Translations under genes and position numbers: made by a program | Part shown: positions 1 to 10,715 of the stretch, piece by piece | Layout: every line of letters begins with the position of its first letter | How positions within the stretch are numbered: position 1 is the first letter of the stretch | The notes under the pieces: generated by a model | What the model was told of the DNA's origin: nothing | Database searches by the model: none | What the model saw: the letters and a program-made list of their open reading frames with translations, nothing else | Origin: Pedosphaera sp. | GTDB lineage: Bacteria > Verrucomicrobiota > Verrucomicrobiia > Limisphaerales > SIBH01 | Length of the DNA stretch: 13,793 nucleotides | NCBI GenBank assembly: GCA_031414955.1 | Contig: JANOQV010000090.1 | Location: forward strand, 1-13,793 | Reading direction: 5' to 3'

Positions 1-819
1 TCCAGCGCCGCGACGAGGCGGCCCACGACTTCATCGAGCGTCTCGACCATGCCGGCATAGACCGGATTGCGCTGGAGCGAATCAGGCTTCGCCTTCCCGC
101 GATACTTGTCGATCTGCGACTCCTTTGCCTGCCACGGCGAATGCACCTCGAACGCCCAGTAGTTCAGAAAGAACGGCTGATCCTTGTGCTGCTCGATGAA
201 CTTCACCGCCTCGTCGCACACGAGGTCCTCAAGATTGTCGCCGGGCTTTCCATGATTCTTCCAAACGGGGAACGGGTAGAAGAACCCTTTGCCCAACGGA
301 CTCGGCGCCGACGTGTGCGGAATGTCCACATCGAAGCCGTGCTCCAGCGGACTGTATGGTTCCGACCCGAGGTGCCACTTGCCGAAATGCGCCGTGGCAT
401 AACCCTCCGCCTTGAATGCCTTCGCCAGCGTGTAGTGATTCGTGGCGAAGCGCGTCACGCTCTCCGCCGTGCGCGCTTTCTGCGTCGGCGGCGCGGTGGC
501 GTTCAGCTTCTTTTCCAGCACGACTTTCGGCCGATGACAGTCCGGGGCCGTGATGCCGAGCCGGGCTGGATACAGTCCACTAAGAATGCTCGACCGCGTG
601 GGCGAGCACAGCGGGCTGGCGCGAATACGCGCGCGTAAATTTCATCCCGCGCCGCGCCAGTGCATCGAGGTGCGGCGTCTCGAAAAACTTGCTGCCGTAG
701 AGCGACAGGTCGTTCACGCCCAAGTCATCTGCGAGGATGAAGACGACGTTCATTTTGGGTTCTGCCGCGGCCACTTCGAGGCAACAGACCGTGAGAAGAA
801 TCGCGAGAATGGTTTTCAT
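1..819 (-). pseudogene. Formylglycine-dependent (Cys-type) sulfatase, with one frameshift at ~621; 3' end runs off the window
   Basis: ATG at 819 gives a signal peptide (MKTILAILLTVCCLEVAAA) then NVVFILADDLG...TPHLDALARRGMKFTRAYS. Removing one base at ~621 continues ASPLCSPTRSSILSG (CxPxR motif), GYATAHFGKWHLG and PFFLNYWAFEVHSP, with no stop to position 1. Could be an intact gene with a sequencing error. Confidence 0.88.
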
Positions 820-853
820 GGATTGGCTCGGGCGAGAGTGAGAATTCGATTCA

Positions 854-913
854 TCCCGAAATCCGAAGTTCGAAATCCGAGATGCGAAAGAAATCCGAAA
901 CCCGAAGGCCGAA
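854..913. repeat. Degenerate 7-nt tandem repeat (consensus ATCCGAA), 8 units
   Basis: tcccgaa atccgaa gttcgaa atccgag atgcgaa [agaa] atccgaa acccgaa ggccgaa, read directly from the sequence. Confidence 0.85.
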
Positions 914-973
914 AGGCCGCGTTCCAGAAGATGGGGCGTGCGATTAAAAGTGGTGGGCAGACCAGGAGGTGGA

Positions 974-1058: not shown

Positions 1059-1127
1059 TTCCCACAGATTCAGGACAACCACAGATTTTTCGGAGCGGAA
1101 TCTGCGGGCGTCCCGAATCTGCGGGAA
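1059..1127. repeat. Inverted repeat built from CCRCAGATT units (family 2, copy 1)
   Basis: 29-nt arms at 1059-1087 and 1099-1127 (24/29 complementary) with an 11-nt loop; similar element at 10640-10715. Confidence 0.85.
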
Positions 1128-3430: not shown

Positions 3431-5986
3431 CTACGAATCGAGCGCGCCCGTGCGAATCGCCACCACGGTATCGTAAAGTCCGTAGTGCGTCAGCCCCTCA
3501 TGGCTCTCGATCCCGGTGTAGCGCAGCGAGGCGTCCTCGTAACGGCGGAAGGCGAAGACGGCTTGGTTCATGTGCTCGGTGTTGAATACCCTGAGCCCGA
3601 CGAGCAGGTGGAAATCCTTTACCGTCAGGCCGGTCACGATCAGAAACAAGTCGGGTTCAATCTTGGTGATGACTTGCTGTAGCGTGTTCTCTCGGAAGTC
3701 GGTCAGATACATGAACGCCGGGATGCGCGTGGCGAACTTGATGAGCTTCTCCTGCACCAGCTTCCGCTTGGACTTGTATTCCTTCTCCTCCTCGGTGAGC
3801 TGCTTTTTCTCTTTCGCCGACAAATCCTTTTCCTTCGCTTTGTTCTTGAGCGCCTTCACTTTCTCGCTCTTGTTGATGATGGTTTCGATGACGTTGTCGC
3901 CGAGCGCGCGCCAGCCTTCGATGCGCTCCACGGCGGCCATCGCCTCGGGGTTGTCGAGGATGCGGCGCAGCGTGTCGTTATCCACGTTCACCAGCATGGC
4001 CGATTCCCACTTGCGCGCGAGCAGCGTGGCCGAGGTTCCGGCCATCGCGATGTCGAGGATGCCGCCCGCATCAATCTGCGTCATGTTCGCGCCGTCGTAG
4101 GCCAGCACGGGCAGGAACGACACGAGGTCTCTCACGGCGTTCTCCGGGTTCGGCTCGCCGGGCGAAAGCCCGATCCCGTATTCAGAGAGCTGCCGCAGCG
4201 CGCGCGTCGGCGCAAAGTCGAACACGAAACAGATCGGCTTGAGAATTTCCTCCTCGTTCGGGTCGTCGCCGTTGGGGTTCTTGATGGACCACGGCGACTG
4301 CACGCGAAACGCCGCTTGGAAGTAGGTCTCCGGCGACTTGAGGTTGCGCAGCATCAGGATGGACGACCACTGCGGCACGGTGATGCCGGTGGTGAGCTTG
4401 CCGCAGGAGAGCGTGATGGTCTTGGTGTCGAAGCCGCTGCCGATGGCCTGGCGCACGGGCGGCAATGCTTCCAATCCGATGCCCGCCGCCGAGCCAGCGG
4501 CGACGAGTGCATCGTAGTCATGCCAGAAGACGTTGTGCTTCTCGGCCAGCAGGTTCGCCATCGCGTGACAGGCCGCGACGTTGGGCAGGAACCAGAACGA
4601 GTGCTGGAGATACGGCAGCAGGCGCACGTCCGAATACGGAAAGGGCGGGCGCGTGCCGGTCTTGAGCTGCTCCACCGCCTTGGCCGCATAGCCGCCGCGG
4701 ATGATGTCCAGCCACTTCTGCACGTCGCTCTTGTGTTTGAACTGCGCCTTTTTCCCGTCGCCCGACGCCTCAAAGAAAGTGTTCAGGTCGAACTCATCAA
4801 ACTCCCCGGCGCTGGCGATGGCCACCAGTTCGTCTGGCATTTGGTAGGTGAGGAGCCGCATTTGCGGCAATGCGCCGTAGGGATTCCACTGGCCAGGCTT
4901 CTTCGTCGCGAACTCCTCCTTCGCGCGCTGCTCGTCGGTGTAGGTCCAGTTGAAAATCTGCTCCTCGATGAACTCACCCGTGGCCAGCGCCTTGAACGGC
5001 GTGCCGGAGAGGTAGAGGTAAGCCTTGGTGGTGATGGGCAGGAACTCGGTCTCGCTTTCCGAGAGTTCGCTCAGGTCCACATTCACGCTTTCCAATCCGG
5101 CGGCGTATTCCAGCTTCGCCTCCTTCTTCGCGACCGCCTCTTCCTCACCCTCGAACAGTTCCTTCGCCGTCTCGCGCCAGGCACCGAAGTGGTATTCGTC
5201 AAAGACGACCAGGTCCCACTTCACTTTGTGGAGCCATTCGTTCTTGGCCTTGATGTTCCCCACATCGTCGCGGCCCAGCAGGTCTTGGAAGGAGCCGAAA
5301 TAGACGAGCGGCTTCTTGGCGGAGATGCGGGTCGGGTCGCTGTCGGAATTGCGGGAGAGGTATTGCCAGCCGTCAAAGTCCTTGTGCGATTCGAGGTCCG
5401 TCTGCCACGCATCCTCCACGGCCGGTTTGAAAGTGACCACCAGCACCCGCTTCGCCCCGAGTTTCCGGGCGAGCTGATAGGCGGTGAAGGTCTTGCCGAA
5501 ACGCATCTTCGCGTTCCAGAGGAAGCGCGGGACGGCGTGCATGTCCTCCTTCCAGATGGAGTGGAAATAATCGTGCGTCTTGTCCACGGCGGCGCGCTGC
5601 TCGGCGCGCATGGCAAAGGTCTCGGAGTGCGTGCCGGTGAACCGCTGCCCGGTGCGCAGTTCGGTGAGGACGGTCTTCACGTCCTTGAGCGTGCAGCGCA
5701 TCCATTCCAATTCCGTATTCGCGCAACCCCTCCGGGCGAGGGCGGCGCGCACGGCGTGGTCGGTGAAAATCGTGCCGTCATCGCGCTCGGCGGACTCGTC
5801 CAGCTCGATGGTGTAGTTCTTGATGTTGGCGGTCTTGAGCTGTTCGGCGACGCGCTGCTTCACGTCGCGCGTGGTCTGCCCGACCTTGAGCTGACCCGCG
5901 TGCGCCTTGTCCGCGATGGCGTAGGCGTAAATGCGCGGCCGGGCCTCCGGCTTGGGCGCAAGGATTTCTTCGATGGTCTTACTCAT
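3431..5986 (-). CDS. Restriction-type nuclease-helicase: N-terminal GIY-YIG-like (T5orf172-type) domain plus SF2 DExH helicase
   Basis: 851 aa from MSKTIEE. IYAY...LKVGQTTR nuclease-like N-terminus; Walker A-like NAKMRFGKT; DEYH; LSGTP; KLTTGITVP; QAAFRVQSP. The ATG at 5986 is supported by the two duplicated gene starts, which begin at the same ATG. Confidence 0.9.
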   Translation of the reverse strand: MSKTIEEILAPKPEARPRIYAYAIADKAHAGQLKVGQTTRDVKQRVAEQLKTANIKNYTIELDESAERDDGTIFTDHAVRAALARRGCANTELEWMRCTLKDVKTVLTELRTGQRFTGTHSETFAMRAEQRAAVDKTHDYFHSIWKEDMHAVPRFLWNAKMRFGKTFTAYQLARKLGAKRVLVVTFKPAVEDAWQTDLESHKDFDGWQYLSRNSDSDPTRISAKKPLVYFGSFQDLLGRDDVGNIKAKNEWLHKVKWDLVVFDEYHFGAWRETAKELFEGEEEAVAKKEAKLEYAAGLESVNVDLSELSESETEFLPITTKAYLYLSGTPFKALATGEFIEEQIFNWTYTDEQRAKEEFATKKPGQWNPYGALPQMRLLTYQMPDELVAIASAGEFDEFDLNTFFEASGDGKKAQFKHKSDVQKWLDIIRGGYAAKAVEQLKTGTRPPFPYSDVRLLPYLQHSFWFLPNVAACHAMANLLAEKHNVFWHDYDALVAAGSAAGIGLEALPPVRQAIGSGFDTKTITLSCGKLTTGITVPQWSSILMLRNLKSPETYFQAAFRVQSPWSIKNPNGDDPNEEEILKPICFVFDFAPTRALRQLSEYGIGLSPGEPNPENAVRDLVSFLPVLAYDGANMTQIDAGGILDIAMAGTSATLLARKWESAMLVNVDNDTLRRILDNPEAMAAVERIEGWRALGDNVIETIINKSEKVKALKNKAKEKDLSAKEKKQLTEEEKEYKSKRKLVQEKLIKFATRIPAFMYLTDFRENTLQQVITKIEPDLFLIVTGLTVKDFHLLVGLRVFNTEHMNQAVFAFRRYEDASLRYTGIESHEGLTHYGLYDTVVAIRTGALDS

Positions 5987-5988
5987 CG
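5898..5988. repeat. Helicase 5'-end direct repeat, copy C (functional gene start)
   Basis: 85/91 identical to 7317-7407; 5949-5986 is identical to 7040-7077. Confidence 0.95.
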
Positions 5989-7022
5989 CCTTTGTCCTCG
6001 TCACGTTTCTCCAGCGCCGCGAACGTATCGAAATCGCTTTGAAAGAGCTTGTCCTGAATCACGCGGTATTTCTCGAACTCGCCCTCGGCGTGCTCACGGG
6101 CGATTTCGGCGCTGATGCGCCCGGCGTCTTGCAGCACTTTCCGCTCATCCGCCGCGAGGAAGATGTCGAGCCGCGCCGCCCAAGCCTCCATCGTCATGGG
6201 CACGCGGCGTTTGGCGCGGCTTTCCGCCAGGTCGAGGTAGGCGTTCACGATGCGCCCCAAGTCTTCGAGTTCCGCCTCTGTCAGGTAGTTCTTTGCCACT
6301 CCGACGTCGCTTTTGAGAATTTTGCCGCCGGGGGCTTTGGCCCAAGTCGTCAACCCCATGCGTTCTTTCGTGTGATTCGCGCGCTGGACGATCAGCTCGG
6401 CAGCGGTGTTCCCGTGGACGGCGTAGTGCATCTTGTTCTGCACTTTGGCGAAGAACGCCTGCGTGATCGGCGCGTCCCGGTCGTAATCCATCGCCGTGGA
6501 ATAGAGGTCGGCGATCTTTTGATAAAAGCGCCGCTCGGACAGGCGGATTTCCCGTATCTCCTCCAGCAGGCGCTCGAAGTAATCCTCGTCGAGGAACGCG
6601 CCGTTCTCCATGCGCTTCCGGTCCATCACATAGCCCCGCAGCGTGTAATCCCGCAGGACTCCCGTGGCCCATTGCCGGAAGGCCGTGGCGCGCTTGGAGT
6701 TCACGCGGTAGCCGACGGCGATAATGGCATCAAGGTGGTAGTGCTTGATCCGGTAGTTTTTGCCGTCGGCGGCAGTTGCTAAGAAAACCTTAGCAACTGA
6801 ATCTTCCGCCAATTCCTTCCCGGCGAAGATGTTCTTGAGGTGCATCAGCACGTTTTCCGGTGTCGTCGCAAACAGAAGCCCGATGTTTTTTTGCGACAGC
6901 CAGATCGTGCCGTCCTGCACCCGCACTTCCACGCCGTCGCCGCCGGTCTGGTAGGCGAAGGTTAGAAATTCCGCCGTGCTGTTGCGGATGCGCACACTGT
7001 TCGGTGATTTCTTTTTAGGCAT
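5979..7022 (-). CDS. rhuM: Virulence RhuM-family protein
   Basis: 347 aa. TIWLSQKNIGLLF, HYHLDAIIAVGYRVNSKRATAFRQWAT, LLEEIREIRLSERRFYQKI and FFAKVQNKMHYAVHGNTAAELI are typical RhuM motifs. AGGAG RBS at 7033-7029, 6 nt before the ATG. Confidence 0.93.
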   Translation of the reverse strand: MPKKKSPNSVRIRNSTAEFLTFAYQTGGDGVEVRVQDGTIWLSQKNIGLLFATTPENVLMHLKNIFAGKELAEDSVAKVFLATAADGKNYRIKHYHLDAIIAVGYRVNSKRATAFRQWATGVLRDYTLRGYVMDRKRMENGAFLDEDYFERLLEEIREIRLSERRFYQKIADLYSTAMDYDRDAPITQAFFAKVQNKMHYAVHGNTAAELIVQRANHTKERMGLTTWAKAPGGKILKSDVGVAKNYLTEAELEDLGRIVNAYLDLAESRAKRRVPMTMEAWAARLDIFLAADERKVLQDAGRISAEIAREHAEGEFEKYRVIQDKLFQSDFDTFAALEKRDEDKGDE

Positions 7023-7035
7023 GGGCGTCTCCTGT

Positions 7036-7077
7036 CTATGGCTTGGGCGCAAGGATTTCTTCGATGGTCTTACTCAT
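7036..7077 (-). repeat. Helicase 5'-end direct repeat, copy B; 13-codon mini-ORF MSKTIEEILAPKP*
   Basis: 7040-7077 is a perfect 38-bp copy of 5949-5986; TAG stop at 7038-7036. Confidence 0.93.
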
Positions 7078-7087
7078 GGGCGCGCTT

Positions 7088-7405
7088 TCAGGGGGTGGTT
7101 TCAGCGCCAACGGCGCGGCCTAGGCCAGCCCAGGGCAACGCCCTGGGAACAATGCCCCCCAATATTTCAAGCCCTGAAAGGGCGGACCCATGCGGGGCCG
7201 CGTGGACCATTGCGTTCGCCGTTTTGGGCCGCCCTTTCAGGGCTTGGGATTTTATGGGGGACGCATACCCAGGGCGTTGCCCTGGGCTGGTGTTGGGCCG
7301 CGCCGTTGGCGCTGGGGCGTGCGCCTGGTCCGCGATGGCGTAGGCGTAGATGCGCGGACGCGCCTCCGGCTTCGGCGCAAGGATTTCTTCGATGGTCTTA
7401 TTCAT
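7088..7405 (-). pseudogene. Truncated helicase start (copy A, 7317-7407) fused in frame to the REP doublet (105-codon ORF)
   Basis: MNKTIEEILAPKPEARPRIYAYAIADQAHA matches helicase residues 1-30 at 28/30, then switches to REP-derived sequence. Confidence 0.85.
7102..7314. mobile_element. Inverted doublet of three-hairpin REP modules (REPIN/MITE-like, non-autonomous)
   Basis: Arms at 7102-7190 and 7225-7314 are inverted, with a 34-nt spacer. Each carries GCGCC-AAC-GGCGC, CCCAGGGC-AAC-GCCCTGGG and GCCCT-GAA-AGGGC, the same modules that flank the RAYT gene. Confidence 0.85.
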
Positions 7406-8981
7406 CGTCGGCGTCTTCGAGGTTCATCGCCCTGACCTGAGACTCGATGTAGGCCTGTTCCTTCTTCGTGATGCCGTATTTCGCGTAAAGGTCTTCGTCC
7501 GTCCAAGTGCGGTCCCATGTCTGCATCGGCACCCAAACGTAAGTGGAGTGCGTCGCGTCTTGGGTAATCTTTCGCACCGAGACGAGGAATCGGAAAAATC
7601 GCGTCGTGTAATACGACTGGAGACTCTTGGCCGCCTTGAGTGAACCAACGTGAAAGAATAGGAACGACTGGGTGCAGACTGACGGCGATGGAGCAATTAA
7701 CGGCTTGCCCAAGATCTGATGAGGCACCGCATCTCCGCCATTGAACGCCTTCGGGACAAGAAGCTTCCAAGTGTCGATTAGGTGAGCACTCTTGGTTACT
7801 ACCTTTCTCTCGATGTAGCCCACGTCCCGCTTCATCGTGCGGATATAGTTAATCGGGACATCGCCTGAACGCTCCTTTTCGTGGAATCCGTCGAAGTTCG
7901 ATGTCCAGCCGAACTCCTTGTCGCGGGCGAGGATCGTGTTGATGGACGGTTCGCGATGAGCCAACACCTTGTGCAGAATCGTCACGGCACGCGCATCGCG
8001 GACGAAAACATCGTATTCGCCCAAGTTGCGTTTCACTGGGCCAACGATTTCACCTCCGCGAATTGTTGTCACATTGCAGTCGCCGTTATGGGAGGAGTCG
8101 CGAAGGAAATAGCAAACACCGGCTTTGACCTCAACGCCGGGAAACACGTCCGCAGCCGCCGGATAGTCCACCAGTTCACGCATCTTCCGGTCACCCAACA
8201 TCGTCTGGCGAAACTCACTGAGCCCGAGGCCGGAAGCCATCCAACGAGAGGGAATGACCATCGCGAGGTATCGCGGCTCAAGTGCTTTCGCCTGCTCGAC
8301 GAAGTTCTGATAAATCGGCACGTCGCGAGTGCCGCCGTCACTCGCCAATTGATACGGCGGATTTCCAATGATGACGTCGAATTGCATGTTGCCTCCAAAA
8401 ATCTCGGCGAGCCGAGTCTTGATGTTGTCGGTGTGAATGAACGCGTAGGCGTGGGTTTCCAGTCCCGCCGCCCGGTCGAAAACGGATTTGCCCGCGCCGC
8501 AATACTTGCACTTGTCGCCCTCCCAAGTGTGCTTGAGGCGCTGGAACCAGATGTTGCCATCGTCGCTGGCGAAGCCTTTGGCAATCGAGTGTTCGCCTTG
8601 GGCGTGCTTGGAGCAATACACGCTGCGCCGCGCGAGGAGGCTGGTGATTTGCGTGATGCCGATGCCAAACACCTGCTGGGTGAGGATGTGGTTCACGCGC
8701 TTTTTCAGGTTCGGAATCTCCTTTTCCAGTCCCTGCGTGAGTCGGCTGGTGATTTCGCGCAGGAACACGCCGGATTTCGTGCAGGGGTCGAGGAACTTCA
8801 CCGTCTTGTCGGTCCAGAGGTTTGCGCCTTTGTTGTTCGCCGCCCACGCCTCGGCCAGCGTGTCGAGCATCCGGTTGGCAAACTCCGGCGGCGTGAACAC
8901 CTCGTCGTTGGAGAGATTCGCGATGCACGTCAGCACGTCCGGGTTGCGCCCGCGCAGGGAGAATGGGACTTGGGCGGTCAT
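7398..8981 (-). CDS. N6-adenine DNA methyltransferase (gamma-type motif order, Eco57I-methylase-like) with C-terminal putative target-recognition region
   Basis: 527 aa. NDEVFTP (motif X), FLDPCTKSGVF (variant motif I), FDVIIGNPPY (motif IV), IYQNFV, MVIPSRW, VFPGVEV. Confidence 0.92.
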   Translation of the reverse strand: MTAQVPFSLRGRNPDVLTCIANLSNDEVFTPPEFANRMLDTLAEAWAANNKGANLWTDKTVKFLDPCTKSGVFLREITSRLTQGLEKEIPNLKKRVNHILTQQVFGIGITQITSLLARRSVYCSKHAQGEHSIAKGFASDDGNIWFQRLKHTWEGDKCKYCGAGKSVFDRAAGLETHAYAFIHTDNIKTRLAEIFGGNMQFDVIIGNPPYQLASDGGTRDVPIYQNFVEQAKALEPRYLAMVIPSRWMASGLGLSEFRQTMLGDRKMRELVDYPAAADVFPGVEVKAGVCYFLRDSSHNGDCNVTTIRGGEIVGPVKRNLGEYDVFVRDARAVTILHKVLAHREPSINTILARDKEFGWTSNFDGFHEKERSGDVPINYIRTMKRDVGYIERKVVTKSAHLIDTWKLLVPKAFNGGDAVPHQILGKPLIAPSPSVCTQSFLFFHVGSLKAAKSLQSYYTTRFFRFLVSVRKITQDATHSTYVWVPMQTWDRTWTDEDLYAKYGITKKEQAYIESQVRAMNLEDADDE

Positions 8982-9094
8982 GGCTTGGGCCGCCCTTTCA
9001 GGGCTGGGTGGTTGTCAAACGTCCGGTTCCCAGGGCGTTGCCCCTGGCTGGAGTTGAAGCGCGCCGTTGGCGCTGTGACGGAATCACTCATCGT
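8979..9094. repeat. REP module / 116-bp direct repeat, copy 1; encodes a 37-aa ORF at 9091-8978
   Basis: About 104/116 identical to 9657-9772 by manual alignment; contains the three hairpins. Confidence 0.92.
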
Positions 9095-9123
9095 CGCGAA
9101 TCCACCCCGATAAAAATCAGTTG

Positions 9124-9206
9124 CAGGCCAACGGCCTGACCCATGCCAGCCCAGGGCAACGCCCTGGGACAACGGGTTGGAAGGCCGCAAGCCCTGAAGG
9201 GGCGGC
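9124..9206. repeat. REP module in inverted orientation, abutting the RAYT stop codon
   Basis: CAGGCC-AAC-GGCCTG, CCCAGGGC-AAC-GCCCTGGG and GCCCT-GAA-GGGGC. Confidence 0.9.
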
Positions 9207-9659
9207 CTAGTCCCACACATACCGTTCATCAAACGCGACGCGATGGCGTTCCAAAAACGCCCGGTATTCCTCCTGAAACGATTTGACCCGATGATGCTCG
9301 CGTTGTCCGGCGATGTAATCGCGGACGGCTGGCACGTTGGATTCGCTGACGGCGAACGCCCCGTAACCCGCCTGCCACGCGAACCCAGCAAACTCTGCGC
9401 CTTGGGTTTTGATCCATTTGGACGAGGATTTTTTGACATCCTCCACCGCCTCGCTGACCGAAACGGTGCGGGCCAGTTCAAAAAGGATGTGAACGTGGTC
9501 TTCGACGGAGTTGATGAGCACGGGAGCGCAGCCAAGGTTTTGGAGCACGGTGGCCATGTAGGCGTGCAGGGAATCACGCACGGCGTCGGTGATGAGGCGT
9601 TCGCGATGTTTGGTGCTGAAGATGAGATGGACATGGAGACGCGCGAGAGATTGAGACAT
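9207..9659 (-). CDS. tnpA: IS200/IS605-superfamily Y1 HUH transposase, REP-associated tyrosine transposase (RAYT)-like
   Basis: 150 aa. HLIFSTKHR, EDHVH (HUH), KKSSSKW, FAWQAGYGAFAVS and DYIAGQ (catalytic Tyr). Flanked by inverted REP modules; no tnpB. Confidence 0.95.
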   Translation of the reverse strand: MSQSLARLHVHLIFSTKHRERLITDAVRDSLHAYMATVLQNLGCAPVLINSVEDHVHILFELARTVSVSEAVEDVKKSSSKWIKTQGAEFAGFAWQAGYGAFAVSESNVPAVRDYIAGQREHHRVKSFQEEYRAFLERHRVAFDERYVWD

Positions 9660-9772
9660 GGCGTGGGTCGCCCTTTCAGGGCTGGGTTGGTTTCAAACGT
9701 CCGGTTCCCAGGGCGTTGCCCTGGGCTGGTATTGAAGCGCGCCGTTGGCGCTGTGACGGGTCCACTCATCGT
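9657..9772. repeat. REP module / 116-bp direct repeat, copy 2
   Basis: Three hairpins; spans from the small MTase-like gene's stop to the RAYT start codon. Confidence 0.92.
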
Positions 9773-10434
9773 GGCAAAGGTTCATCGCTCATCGCGTTGG
9801 CTCCGGCGACAACGGCGGCCAGTTCACCCACGGTCATCGGCGGGTAGGTCTTAGCCGGTGTGAAAATCTCGTGCTTGCCGAGTTGCGCAAAGAGCGAGTC
9901 TTCGGCGCTGAAAGAGGAAGAAAGCGTCAGGGTGTCGAGCCGGAAGTCACGCCGCTGGAACTTGCCTTTGCCGAGGTAGCCCCACTCTGCAAAGAGAATG
10001 GCTGAGCCATCGGCACGACACATCTTCATGGCATCGCCGTGGATGAGATTTTGCGACAGCACGAAGAACGCGGCGCGATACAGGTCGTCCGACGGGGCGA
10101 GGTTCAGATACTCGGCGAAGATCGCCAACAGGTTCGCGCGGCACTCCGCAATATTGTCCGGCAGCAGCTCAATCCCATAGATGGACATGACCGCGAGCAG
10201 CGCGTAATGCCGCCGCTCGAAATCAGACTTGCCGTATTTGAGTTCCACGGCGGCGAGCTTGCGCCGCAAAACCGGCACGAGGAAATTGCCGTCCCCGCAC
10301 GCCGGCTCCAGAAAGCGCGAGTCAATGCGCTCGGTCTCGCCCTTCACGAGGTCGAGCATGGCCTCCACCATCCACGCGGGGGTGAAGACCTCCCCGTGAT
10401 CGGCGACTCGTTGTTTGGATTTTACCAAGCTCAT
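9766..10434 (-). CDS. Short SAM-binding DNA methyltransferase-like protein lacking catalytic motif IV
   Basis: 222 aa from MSLVKSKQRVADHGEVFTP. LEPACGDGNFL (motif I), IYGIEL and NLIHGDA are present; no (N/D)PP(Y/F). Alternative start at 10452. Confidence 0.88.
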   Translation of the reverse strand: MSLVKSKQRVADHGEVFTPAWMVEAMLDLVKGETERIDSRFLEPACGDGNFLVPVLRRKLAAVELKYGKSDFERRHYALLAVMSIYGIELLPDNIAECRANLLAIFAEYLNLAPSDDLYRAAFFVLSQNLIHGDAMKMCRADGSAILFAEWGYLGKGKFQRRDFRLDTLTLSSSFSAEDSLFAQLGKHEIFTPAKTYPPMTVGELAAVVAGANAMSDEPLPR

Positions 10435-10450
10435 GGGCAAATGCGGACGC

Positions 10451-10482
10451 ATCCTAGCGAATGGCTACGCGCGCGACAGCAA
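10451..10482 (-). promoter_or_regulatory. Possible sigma70-like promoter of the RM-like operon
   Basis: TAGGAT (-10-like) at 10456-10451 just upstream of the ATG at 10434; only weak -35 candidates. Confidence 0.2.
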
Positions 10483-10639
10483 AGAACGCGCTGGGTCGCG
10501 AGATTGCTTCCTGATGGTTCTATCCGCAGCATGAGACGAGGCGGGGATGCCAAGGAGTTTGGCGGTCACCAAGCGCGGCTTCCGGTGCGCGTGCGGACGT
10601 TTGTTGCCTCGTTCAAGGGGGCGCTCCCGAAAACTCGGG

Positions 10640-10715
10640 TTTCCCGCAGATTCGGGATTCCACAGATTATGACTCTCCTTCTGAACCATCTGCGGAGACC
10701 CGAATCTGTGGAAAA
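10640..10715. repeat. Inverted repeat built from CCRCAGAT units (family 2, copy 2); possible terminator-like hairpin
   Basis: 28-nt arms at 10640-10667 and 10688-10715 (23/28 complementary), about 60 nt downstream of the heme-protein stop. Confidence 0.82.

What the first reader, a model, noticed from the sequence alone, without database searches (positions are those of the whole stretch)
5898..9772. Candidate RAYT/REP-linked gene-cassette system that loads cargo into the gene junctions of a restriction-modification operon
Seen: both junctions of the three-gene RM-like operon carry inserts bounded by direct repeats that include start/stop codons. These are the RAYT unit (116-bp repeats), a REP doublet (between helicase-start copies A and B) and rhuM (38-bp perfect repeats). 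The core genes remain intact. Five complete copies and one remnant of a single three-hairpin REP module lie only at these two junctions. Known: RAYTs are HUH nucleases that cleave ssDNA at REP hairpins, their cellular role is unresolved, and RM operons often carry accessory genes such as rhuM. Inference: this may be an integron-like but integrase-free array in which RAYT/REP-promoted recombination adds and removes cassettes without breaking the operon.
Basis: partly seen in the sequence, partly recalled or inferred. Interest (0 to 1): 0.85.

Follow-up and report, generated by a model that had tools for sequence, protein, structure and literature searches.

The report
Ribosome-relay cassette arrays in restriction operons
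A DNA-defence operon carries extra genes and hairpin elements stacked between repeated copies of a gene's start, likely shuffled by ordinary recombination rather than by the neighbouring nuclease, and the nuclease gene keeps a second, stop-free reading frame that likely hands ribosomes on to the next gene.

Summary
The repeats are real; the proposed engine is not supported. In 80 homologous operons, 19 of 78 first and 13 of 75 second junctions carry inserts. Eleven of those 13 keep a copy of the helicase start, with up to four copies in one locus, and single-cassette and stacked alleles are both seen. Only 3 of the 11 carry this REP family there, and 6 lie in genomes without its core hairpin. 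The modules also occur on 17 other contigs of this genome. The nuclease has the motif of TnpA_Y1 subclass 1.2, not of a classical RAYT.

The new result is that 30 of 32 inserts preserve stop-to-start coupling. Across the nuclease gene a +1 frame is stop-free in 14 of 14 copies in restriction operons, against 5 of 18 elsewhere, despite heavy synonymous divergence. A Type I hsdM-hsdS junction shows the same layout.

Best reading: a recombination-built, selection-filtered cassette hotspot in which the REP-nuclease unit is a passenger adapted to relay ribosomes. The scan's earlier notes describe this operon and short bridge ORFs on other DNA. New variant of a known kind.

The parts
9766..10452 (-). 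M1: small methyltransferase-like gene (222-228 aa) with a SAM-binding motif I and no NPPY/F motif
9656..9771 (.). 116-bp direct repeat, upstream copy: ATGA overlap with the M1 stop, REP module, Y1 start codon
9661..9758 (-). Three-hairpin REP module 1
9207..9659 (-).
8978..9769 (-). Bridge ORF 1, 263 codons: starts in ATGA at the M1 stop, runs through REP, the +1 frame of Y1 and two more REPs, ends in ATGA at the M2 start
9119..9212 (+). REP module 2 (inverted, after Y1)
8978..9093 (.). 116-bp direct repeat, downstream copy, holding REP module 3 (8982-9080) and the M2 start codon
7398..8981 (-). M2: Eco57I-type adenine methyltransferase, 527 aa, NPPY; variable C-terminal half; its stop codon lies inside the helicase start (ATGAATAA)
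7317..7405 (-). Helicase-start copy B (29 codons)
7088..7405 (-). Bridge ORF 2, 105 codons: copy B read on through the REP doublet, stopping 10 nt before the next start
7098..7317 (.). Inverted REP doublet (modules 7221-7317 and 7098-7193)
7036..7077 (-). Middle helicase-start copy (38 bp, 7040-7077, identical to the real start), read as a 13-codon ORF stopping 13 nt before rhuM
5979..7022 (-). rhuM cargo gene, 347 aa (PF13310; PADLOC PDC-S05); its stop overlaps the real helicase start
3431..5986 (-). T5orf172 (GIY-YIG-type) nuclease plus ResIII helicase, 851 aa; its first 89 nt (5898-5986) are start copy A

Best explanation
The two junctions are cassette hotspots in which cargo sits between repeated gene starts, likely built and reshuffled by homology-anchored recombination between operon alleles, and the surviving inserts keep an unbroken stop-to-start chain that likely relays ribosomes from one core gene to the next. 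Shown: variable cargo, repeated helicase starts, single and stacked alleles of the same cassettes, the coupling chain, and avoidance of +1 stop codons in the Y1 gene. Inferred, step 1: a new cassette arises when incoming DNA is anchored by homology on one side and joined illegitimately on the other, or when a hairpin element inserts into helicase codons 25-39 and a donor then restores a full start behind it. The old start stays because it holds the M2 stop codon and a coupled ATG. Inferred, step 2: the start copies then serve as crossover sites that stack or drop cassettes as alleles move between hosts. Inferred, step 3: selection for coupled expression of M1, M2 and the helicase removes polar inserts. 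The REP-Y1-REP unit is a mobile passenger. One clade of it has adapted to these junctions by keeping its +1 frame open, so that it would be crossed by ribosomes without being translated in its own frame.
For: Junction variability: 19 of 78 and 13 of 75 (two junctions corrected by hand). Start copies in 11 of 13 second-junction inserts, at many different lengths from 27 to 153 nt, behind RhuM, Fic, YhcG, Bro-N, DUF559 and Y1. Component and product alleles: RhuM cassette alone (L047), Y1 unit alone (L086), both stacked (L034), and the window, which matches L034's second junction with the Y1 segment missing between directly repeated modules. Several remnants match another locus's start better than their own (L058 3 vs 9 mismatches, L083 10 vs 17, L086 5 vs 12), and 65 of 127 codon differences are synonymous. 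M2 N-half is 80% and C-half 53% identical, medians, so allele swapping is common here. Coupling: largest untranslated gap of 24 nt or less in 30 of 32 inserts, against 7 of 32 when inserts are reverse-complemented; median shuffled gap 61 nt. +1 frame open in 19 of 32 genes of one clade and 1 of 79 others; 14 of 14 in restriction operons against 5 of 18 elsewhere; 0 of 60 at-risk Leu/Val sites make a stop against 36 of 101, with control NTG use of 38% and 37%; fourfold-site distance 0.53. A distant Y1 (L056) is bridged in its +2 frame. The same layout, with three hsdS-start copies, occurs in a Type I system (L218). The operon is patchy among relatives, 3 of 60.
Against: No recombination event, circle or ribosome movement was observed. 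About half of the start copies are followed by hairpin elements of several families, and their breakpoints cluster at 76-116 nt, which an HUH nuclease could cause. Many remnants match their own locus best, which fits local duplication or later homogenisation. Arrays with three or more starts (L031, L034, L054, L056, window) occur only in genomes that carry this REP family. REP clusters are enriched near methyltransferase or hsdS hits in this genome, 5 of 18 against 2.1% background, and in G406, 2 of 3. Five Y1 copies outside restriction operons are also open, and restriction-embedded Y1 genes outside the clade (L155, L175, L219, C172, L028) have +1 stops. The Y1 genes are related, so the Fisher values overstate; the tree was the quick one. 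Three of the 14 context calls (L113, L117, L125) rest on a KilA-N neighbour or an hsdS-like start read by eye. Two inserts (L051, L066) break the chain.
Confidence: 0.65

Rival explanations
1. The Y1 nuclease is the engine. It nicks single-stranded DNA at REP hairpins and releases circles holding cargo plus part of the next gene's start; these reintegrate at the start of another allele and duplicate it, as proposed for ISCR1 and the duplicated 3' conserved segment of complex class 1 integrons.
For: Y1 is under purifying selection (82% amino-acid identity at fourfold distance 0.53) and sits at different junctions of different systems. Cargo genes are cut at REP ends (YhcG in L109/L111, KilA-N in L113/L117, RhuM fragment in L108). 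Multi-start arrays occur only in REP-positive genomes. One X1 contig joins 7405 back to 7092. Mechanistic precedent: PMC7707992, passages.
Against: 6 of 11 start-duplicated loci are in genomes without the REP core. RhuM, Fic, Bro-N and YhcG (L051) cassettes show no module of this family at their borders. No fixed breakpoint or target duplication was evident by eye at module ends. The X1 loop carries changes absent from the window's copies, so it is a further copy rather than a clean excision product.
Confidence: 0.2
2. Mere scars. Defence loci tolerate insertions, the repeats are dead leftovers that are not reused, and the open frames come from high GC content and common descent.
For: Embedding of extra genes in restriction systems is common, and a 'genomic sink' explanation is in print (10.1101/2024.01.29.577857, passages). 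For short doublets the chance of an open frame is 9-41%. Redrawing codons from the clade's own usage leaves 17% of genes open.
Against: For Y1-bearing units the shuffled chance of an open bridge is 0-2% each. 22 of 24 control Leu/Val columns contain NTG and 0 of 6 at-risk columns do. The same cassettes recur in different stacks and beside different M2 alleles.
Confidence: 0.1
3. The +1 frame encodes a functional protein, or its role is to silence the nuclease by running ribosomes over the Y1 start rather than to feed the next gene.
For: The +1 product is 52% identical among copies against 40% in a codon-redraw null. The Y1 start lies just after a hairpin inside the bridge ORF.
Against: Its ends differ at every locus and often come from a neighbour's start. 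No Pfam match for the bridge ORFs tested from L034, L054, L056 and L086. It ends at the next gene's ATG with a -4 overlap in the window, L054 (twice), L086, L108, L109, L113 and L125. Shared ancestry explains identity above the null. Silencing and relay are not exclusive.
Confidence: 0.05

Closest known systems
Mycobacterial interspersed repetitive units (MIRUs), as summarised in PMC12548453 (passages; the original paper was not read)
   Same: Repeats at start codons whose ORF couples to the downstream gene at -4 spacing, limiting polarity.
   Different: MIRUs are short repeats with their own ORF. Here the bridge borrows a duplicated host gene start, spans 0.3-1.1 kb and runs in the +1 frame of a conserved nuclease gene.
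T6SS immunity and Rhs orphan arrays attributed to homology-facilitated illegitimate recombination (PMC5361080, passages)
   Same: Integrase-free arrays built by one-sided anchoring and spread by ordinary recombination; intermediates seen in other strains.
   Different: There an effector's 3' part is displaced and orphan genes trail behind. Here the 5' start of the downstream gene is repeated, core genes stay intact, and coupling is kept.
ISCR1 complex class 1 integrons (PMC7707992, passages)
   Same: A mobile nuclease gene beside cargo bounded by a duplicated piece of the conserved segment; multicopy units.
   Different: ISCR is an IS91-like rolling-circle element with oriIS and terIS. This is a 150-aa Y1 enzyme with inverted hairpin modules, and most cassettes lack it.
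TnpA_Y1 subclass 1.2 and REP/RAYT systems (PMC6006769, passages and section 18; PMC5581495, passages)
   Same: Y---Q--HH signature, short core, few copies per genome, dispersed inverted hairpin doublets.
   Different: Subclass 1.2 was described as generally without typical IS200 end structures and mostly in Cyanobacteria and Bacteroidetes. Here it is bracketed by three-hairpin modules and moves between restriction operons. Class 2 RAYTs have Y---NP, which is absent.
Genes embedded in Type I RM, BREX, DISARM and Hma (10.1101/2024.01.29.577857, passages)
   Same: Co-oriented cargo inside defence operons; RhuM, YhcG and KilA-N cargo match PDC-S05, PDC-S02 and PDC-S22.
   Different: The word 'recombination' does not occur in that main text; the passages seen give no insertion mechanism, start duplication or bridge frame.

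Membership tests
RAYT / TnpA_REP (class 2) | Y---NP catalytic motif | tested here: not met
   Protein reads YIAGQREHH; class 2 signature
RAYT / TnpA_REP (class 2) | Scores over the REP_Tyr_transpos cut-off | tested here: not met
   25 bits against 80
RAYT / TnpA_REP (class 2) | Flanked by inverted hairpin repeats that also occur genome-wide | tested here: met
RAYT / TnpA_REP (class 2) | Cleaves single-stranded REP DNA | not testable with these tools
   needs a biochemical assay
TnpA_Y1 subclass 1.2 | Y---Q--HH signature, HuH, about 150 aa | tested here: met
TnpA_Y1 subclass 1.2 | Subclass-specific C-terminal domain; placement among the paper's reference sequences | not tested
   the paper's supplementary profiles were not read
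Integron | Tyrosine integrase IntI beside the array | tested here: not met
   no integrase among the eight main window proteins scanned or among 55 junction ORFs
Integron | attC-type site ending each cassette | tested here: inconclusive
   cassettes are bounded by gene-start copies; no attC model was run
ISCR element | IS91-like rolling-circle transposase with oriIS and terIS | tested here: not met
   150-aa Y1_Tnp with inverted symmetric ends
MIRU-like coupling insert | ORF from the upstream stop to a -4 overlap with the downstream start | tested here: met
   works like a MIRU; no sequence relationship was tested
HFIR-built array | One homologous anchor, variable illegitimate joint, two-allele origin | tested here: inconclusive
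   variable joints and some two-allele remnants, but many remnants match their own locus best

The most novel reading that the evidence does not exclude
A clade of HUH nuclease elements has specialised on restriction-modification junctions. It hides its own gene under a selected stop-free frame so that it is translationally invisible, and its nicking at hairpins seeds the duplicated gene starts that make these junctions integrase-free loading docks for defence genes. That would give a concrete role to an orphan Y1 class.
Probability: 0.2. Interest if true: 0.85.

Novelty: new variant of a known kind. Interest (0 to 1): 0.62.

Why it matters
It offers a sequence-level account of how accessory genes become embedded in defence operons without breaking them: repeated gene starts act as crossover sites and translational coupling acts as the filter. 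The dual-frame nuclease gene is a clean case of synonymous sites constrained by a frame that seems to encode nothing useful, and a single Y1-synonymous base change tests it. It also shows one way in which REP-associated HUH elements persist, and gives defined substrates for asking whether a subclass 1.2 enzyme moves DNA. No description of this combination turned up in ten library searches; the library omits most subscription journals.

Tried and rejected
REP modules confined to the operon: rejected. General targeting of restriction loci by this REP family: holds in G000 (5 of 18) and G406 (2 of 3) but not in G448 (0 of 13), G454 (0 of 8) or G416 (1 of 6, the query operon's cluster left out). 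The four other genomes were scored by hand from a strict pattern and G000 from a profile, so sensitivities differ. Start duplications around other REP clusters of this genome: none seen within 400 bp, except a repeated hsdS 3' end at C172. Excised alleles or circles: no joint skipping rhuM among all four joints at 96% likeness, and none matching either clean excision among the 15 joints shown at 85%, with 62 not shown. Only contigs were available, which drop rare forms. The 8963-9813 skip in X3/X4 has 37 foreign letters and is probably another organism's empty allele. A fixed cleavage motif or target duplication at module ends: only a loose AG before the first hairpin, judged by eye. The careful tree did not finish; the quick tree was used only to delimit the clade. 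A genome-wide search of the 80 host genomes for the Y1 protein was not completed, so the genome-level test rests on the hairpin pattern alone. Neighbours of the 75 distant Y1 genes were listed but checked only against ten restriction-related proteins, plus a few. No structure prediction or complex folding was run, as no claim depends on it.
Full report
ANATOMY. All genes read on the minus strand: a small methyltransferase-like gene M1 (10452-9766), a 150-aa Y1_Tnp gene (9659-9207), an Eco57I-type methyltransferase M2 (8981-7398), rhuM (7022-5979) and a T5orf172-ResIII nuclease-helicase (5986-3431). M1 has motif I but no NPPY; M2 has NPPY and a variant motif I. This fits a two-part methyltransferase, a reading taken from an earlier scan note and checked here only by motif. 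The window is a whole contig of a 6.5-Mb draft genome.

OBSERVATION. The repeats are as described, with corrections. The 116-bp pair is 89% identical, the 38-bp pair is perfect, and there are three helicase starts (7405, 7077, 5986). Five modules are confirmed and the remnant is not. The module family has 33 further hits on 17 other contigs, many as inverted doublets, with none on the reversed genome. The nuclease carries Y---Q--HH, the signature of TnpA_Y1 subclass 1.2, and lacks the Y---NP of class 2 RAYTs (PMC6006769, passages and section 18). Contigs of run X2 tile the second junction, so a misassembly is unlikely, though X2 may be the source sample.

HOMOLOGOUS OPERONS. The best 80 of 217 loci encoding an M2 relative were kept. 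Inserts over 100 bp occur at 19 of 78 first junctions and 12 of 74 second junctions. I corrected L016's boundary by hand and added L086, whose helicase is cut by the contig end, giving 13 of 75. L078 and L079 end inside rhuM and were left out of the count. Empty junctions mostly overlap by 4 nt (first) or 8 nt (second), and the M2 stop lies inside the helicase start. Cargo includes RhuM, YhcG/DUF1016, Fic-HTH, KilA-N, Bro-N, IrrE-like plus DUF4411, AlbA, DUF5131, DUF559, PDDEXK_3 and Y1 (55 of the 92 listed ORFs or near variants were scanned). Eleven of 13 second-junction inserts keep a helicase-start copy of 27-153 nt; L056 and L054 each have four copies before the real start. At the first junction only L062 repeats the M2 start. 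Component and stacked alleles coexist: RhuM alone (L047), the Y1 unit alone (L086) and both (L034). The window aligns to L034 on both sides of a missing Y1 segment that lies between directly repeated modules. Remnants differ from their own real start at 65 synonymous and 62 non-synonymous codons, against 69% synonymous between functional starts. Some match other loci better and many match their own best, so their origins are mixed.

IS Y1/REP THE ENGINE? Only L034, L054 and L086 of the 11 carry this REP family at the junction. The core hairpin was found in 11 of the 78 host genomes searched; six start-duplicated loci (L016, L024, L047, L051, L058, L083) lie in genomes without it. Draft genomes lose repeats and operons move between hosts, so this weakens the engine idea without excluding it. 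Other hairpin families follow start copies in L031, L056 and L058, and arrays of three or more starts occur only in REP-positive genomes; both points favour some role for hairpin elements. Enrichment near methyltransferase or hsdS hits is strong in this genome (5 of 18 clusters, 2.1% background) but absent in G448 and G454. No clean excision joint was seen. One X1 contig joins 7405 back to 7092 with five base changes and two extra bases, best read as a further copy of the start-plus-doublet unit.

THE BRIDGE. In the window one ORF starts in the ATGA at the M1 stop, crosses a module, the whole Y1 gene in its +1 frame and two more modules, and ends in the ATGA at the M2 start (263 codons). Modelled loss of the 678-bp unit leaves a 37-codon ORF that is still coupled at both ends. 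Across 32 scorable inserts (31 loci-junctions less two with no clear start, plus the corrected one and the window's two), the largest untranslated gap is 24 nt or less in 30 and zero in 19. Reverse-complemented inserts give 7 and 3. Among 111 Y1 genes from the junctions, a metagenome scan and 401 genomes (duplicates and short or broken rows dropped), the +1 frame is stop-free in 19 of 32 members of the window's clade and 1 of 79 others; genome codon-pair usage predicts 0.2-7% per open gene. Split by context rather than by frame, it is open in 14 of 14 genes in restriction operons and 5 of 18 elsewhere, and in 9 of 9 when only loci found by the Y1 query are used. None of 60 Leu/Val-before-A sites makes a stop, against 36 of 101, while control sites use NTG at 38% and 37%. 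Fourfold sites differ at 53%, so the copies are not near-identical, but they are related and the P values overstate. Three contexts are soft, and contexts were assigned after the frames had been seen. L056's distant Y1 is bridged in +2, a frame open in only 3 of 111 genes. Other embedded Y1 genes have stops in both frames; L028 and L219 appear to be translated in series with gaps of 9-15 nt. In a Type I system (L218), hsdM is followed by a bridged Y1 unit and three copies of the hsdS start, two of them cut by REP doublets, so the layout is not peculiar to this operon.

MECHANISM. The most likely account (0.65) is homology-anchored recombination plus selection for coupling. Any insert at the second junction must keep the M2 stop and supply a new helicase start. 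One-sided recombination, or hairpin insertion into the first 25-39 codons followed by rescue from a donor allele, leaves a start copy whose length records the joint. The copies then allow stacking and loss. The variable M2 C-half (53% against 80%) and patchy presence among relatives (3 of 60) show that alleles are exchanged. None of these steps was observed directly. An active role for Y1 in making circles (0.2) remains open.

COMPARISON AND NOVELTY. It works like MIRUs in coupling (PMC12548453, passages), like T6SS and Rhs arrays in assembly (PMC5361080, passages) and, if Y1 is active, like ISCR1 (PMC7707992, passages). Embedding of genes in restriction systems is known (10.1101/2024.01.29.577857, passages). 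A RAYT-diversification proposal for lanthipeptides was later qualified by its authors (10.1101/2020.03.09.984088, first part of two read). It is not an integron, an ISCR or a class 2 RAYT by the tests above. Ten searches found no account of gene-start-bounded arrays in restriction operons or of a nuclease gene with a selected relay frame. Supplements were not read, and those of PMC6006769 bear on the subclass call. Earlier scan notes describe this operon and short bridge ORFs in other genomes; they are unchecked and are not counted as support.

VERDICT. Observation partly confirmed, interpretation partly supported, new variant of a known kind, interest 0.62.

Noticed in passing
G000:C92:25054-25236 (L094): A REP doublet of this family lies in frame inside a 1754-aa Type ISP restriction-modification gene, adding about 60 codons.
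   Followed up: partly
G000:C172:3881-7223 (L093): Fused HsdM-HsdS gene with an in-frame REP doublet, followed by a Y1 gene and a second copy of an hsdS 3' end.
   Followed up: partly
G000:C105:76754 and 79217 (L097): Single modules flank an NgoMIV-type endonuclease and C5 methyltransferase pair on both sides.
   Followed up: no
L139: A Y1 relative lies between brxC and pglX of a BREX system.
   Followed up: no
L054, L056, L087 first junction; L031, L056, L083: PDDEXK_3 and DUF559 genes come with their own repeat or hairpin families at these junctions and are coupled by ATGA overlaps.
   Followed up: partly
window 1098-1126 and 10625-10715: A second, unrelated repeat family forms inverted arms on either side of the wider region (I8 and I10).
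   Followed up: no
window 856-917: Short imperfect tandem repeats upstream of the sulfatase gene (D8 and D10).
   Followed up: no
window 521-820: The sulfatase-like gene at the contig end appears frameshifted near 620-640: its N-terminus and the Pfam-matching part are in different frames.
   Followed up: no
window 7245: Contigs of both X1 and X2 read G where the window has T, inside a REP module.
   Followed up: no
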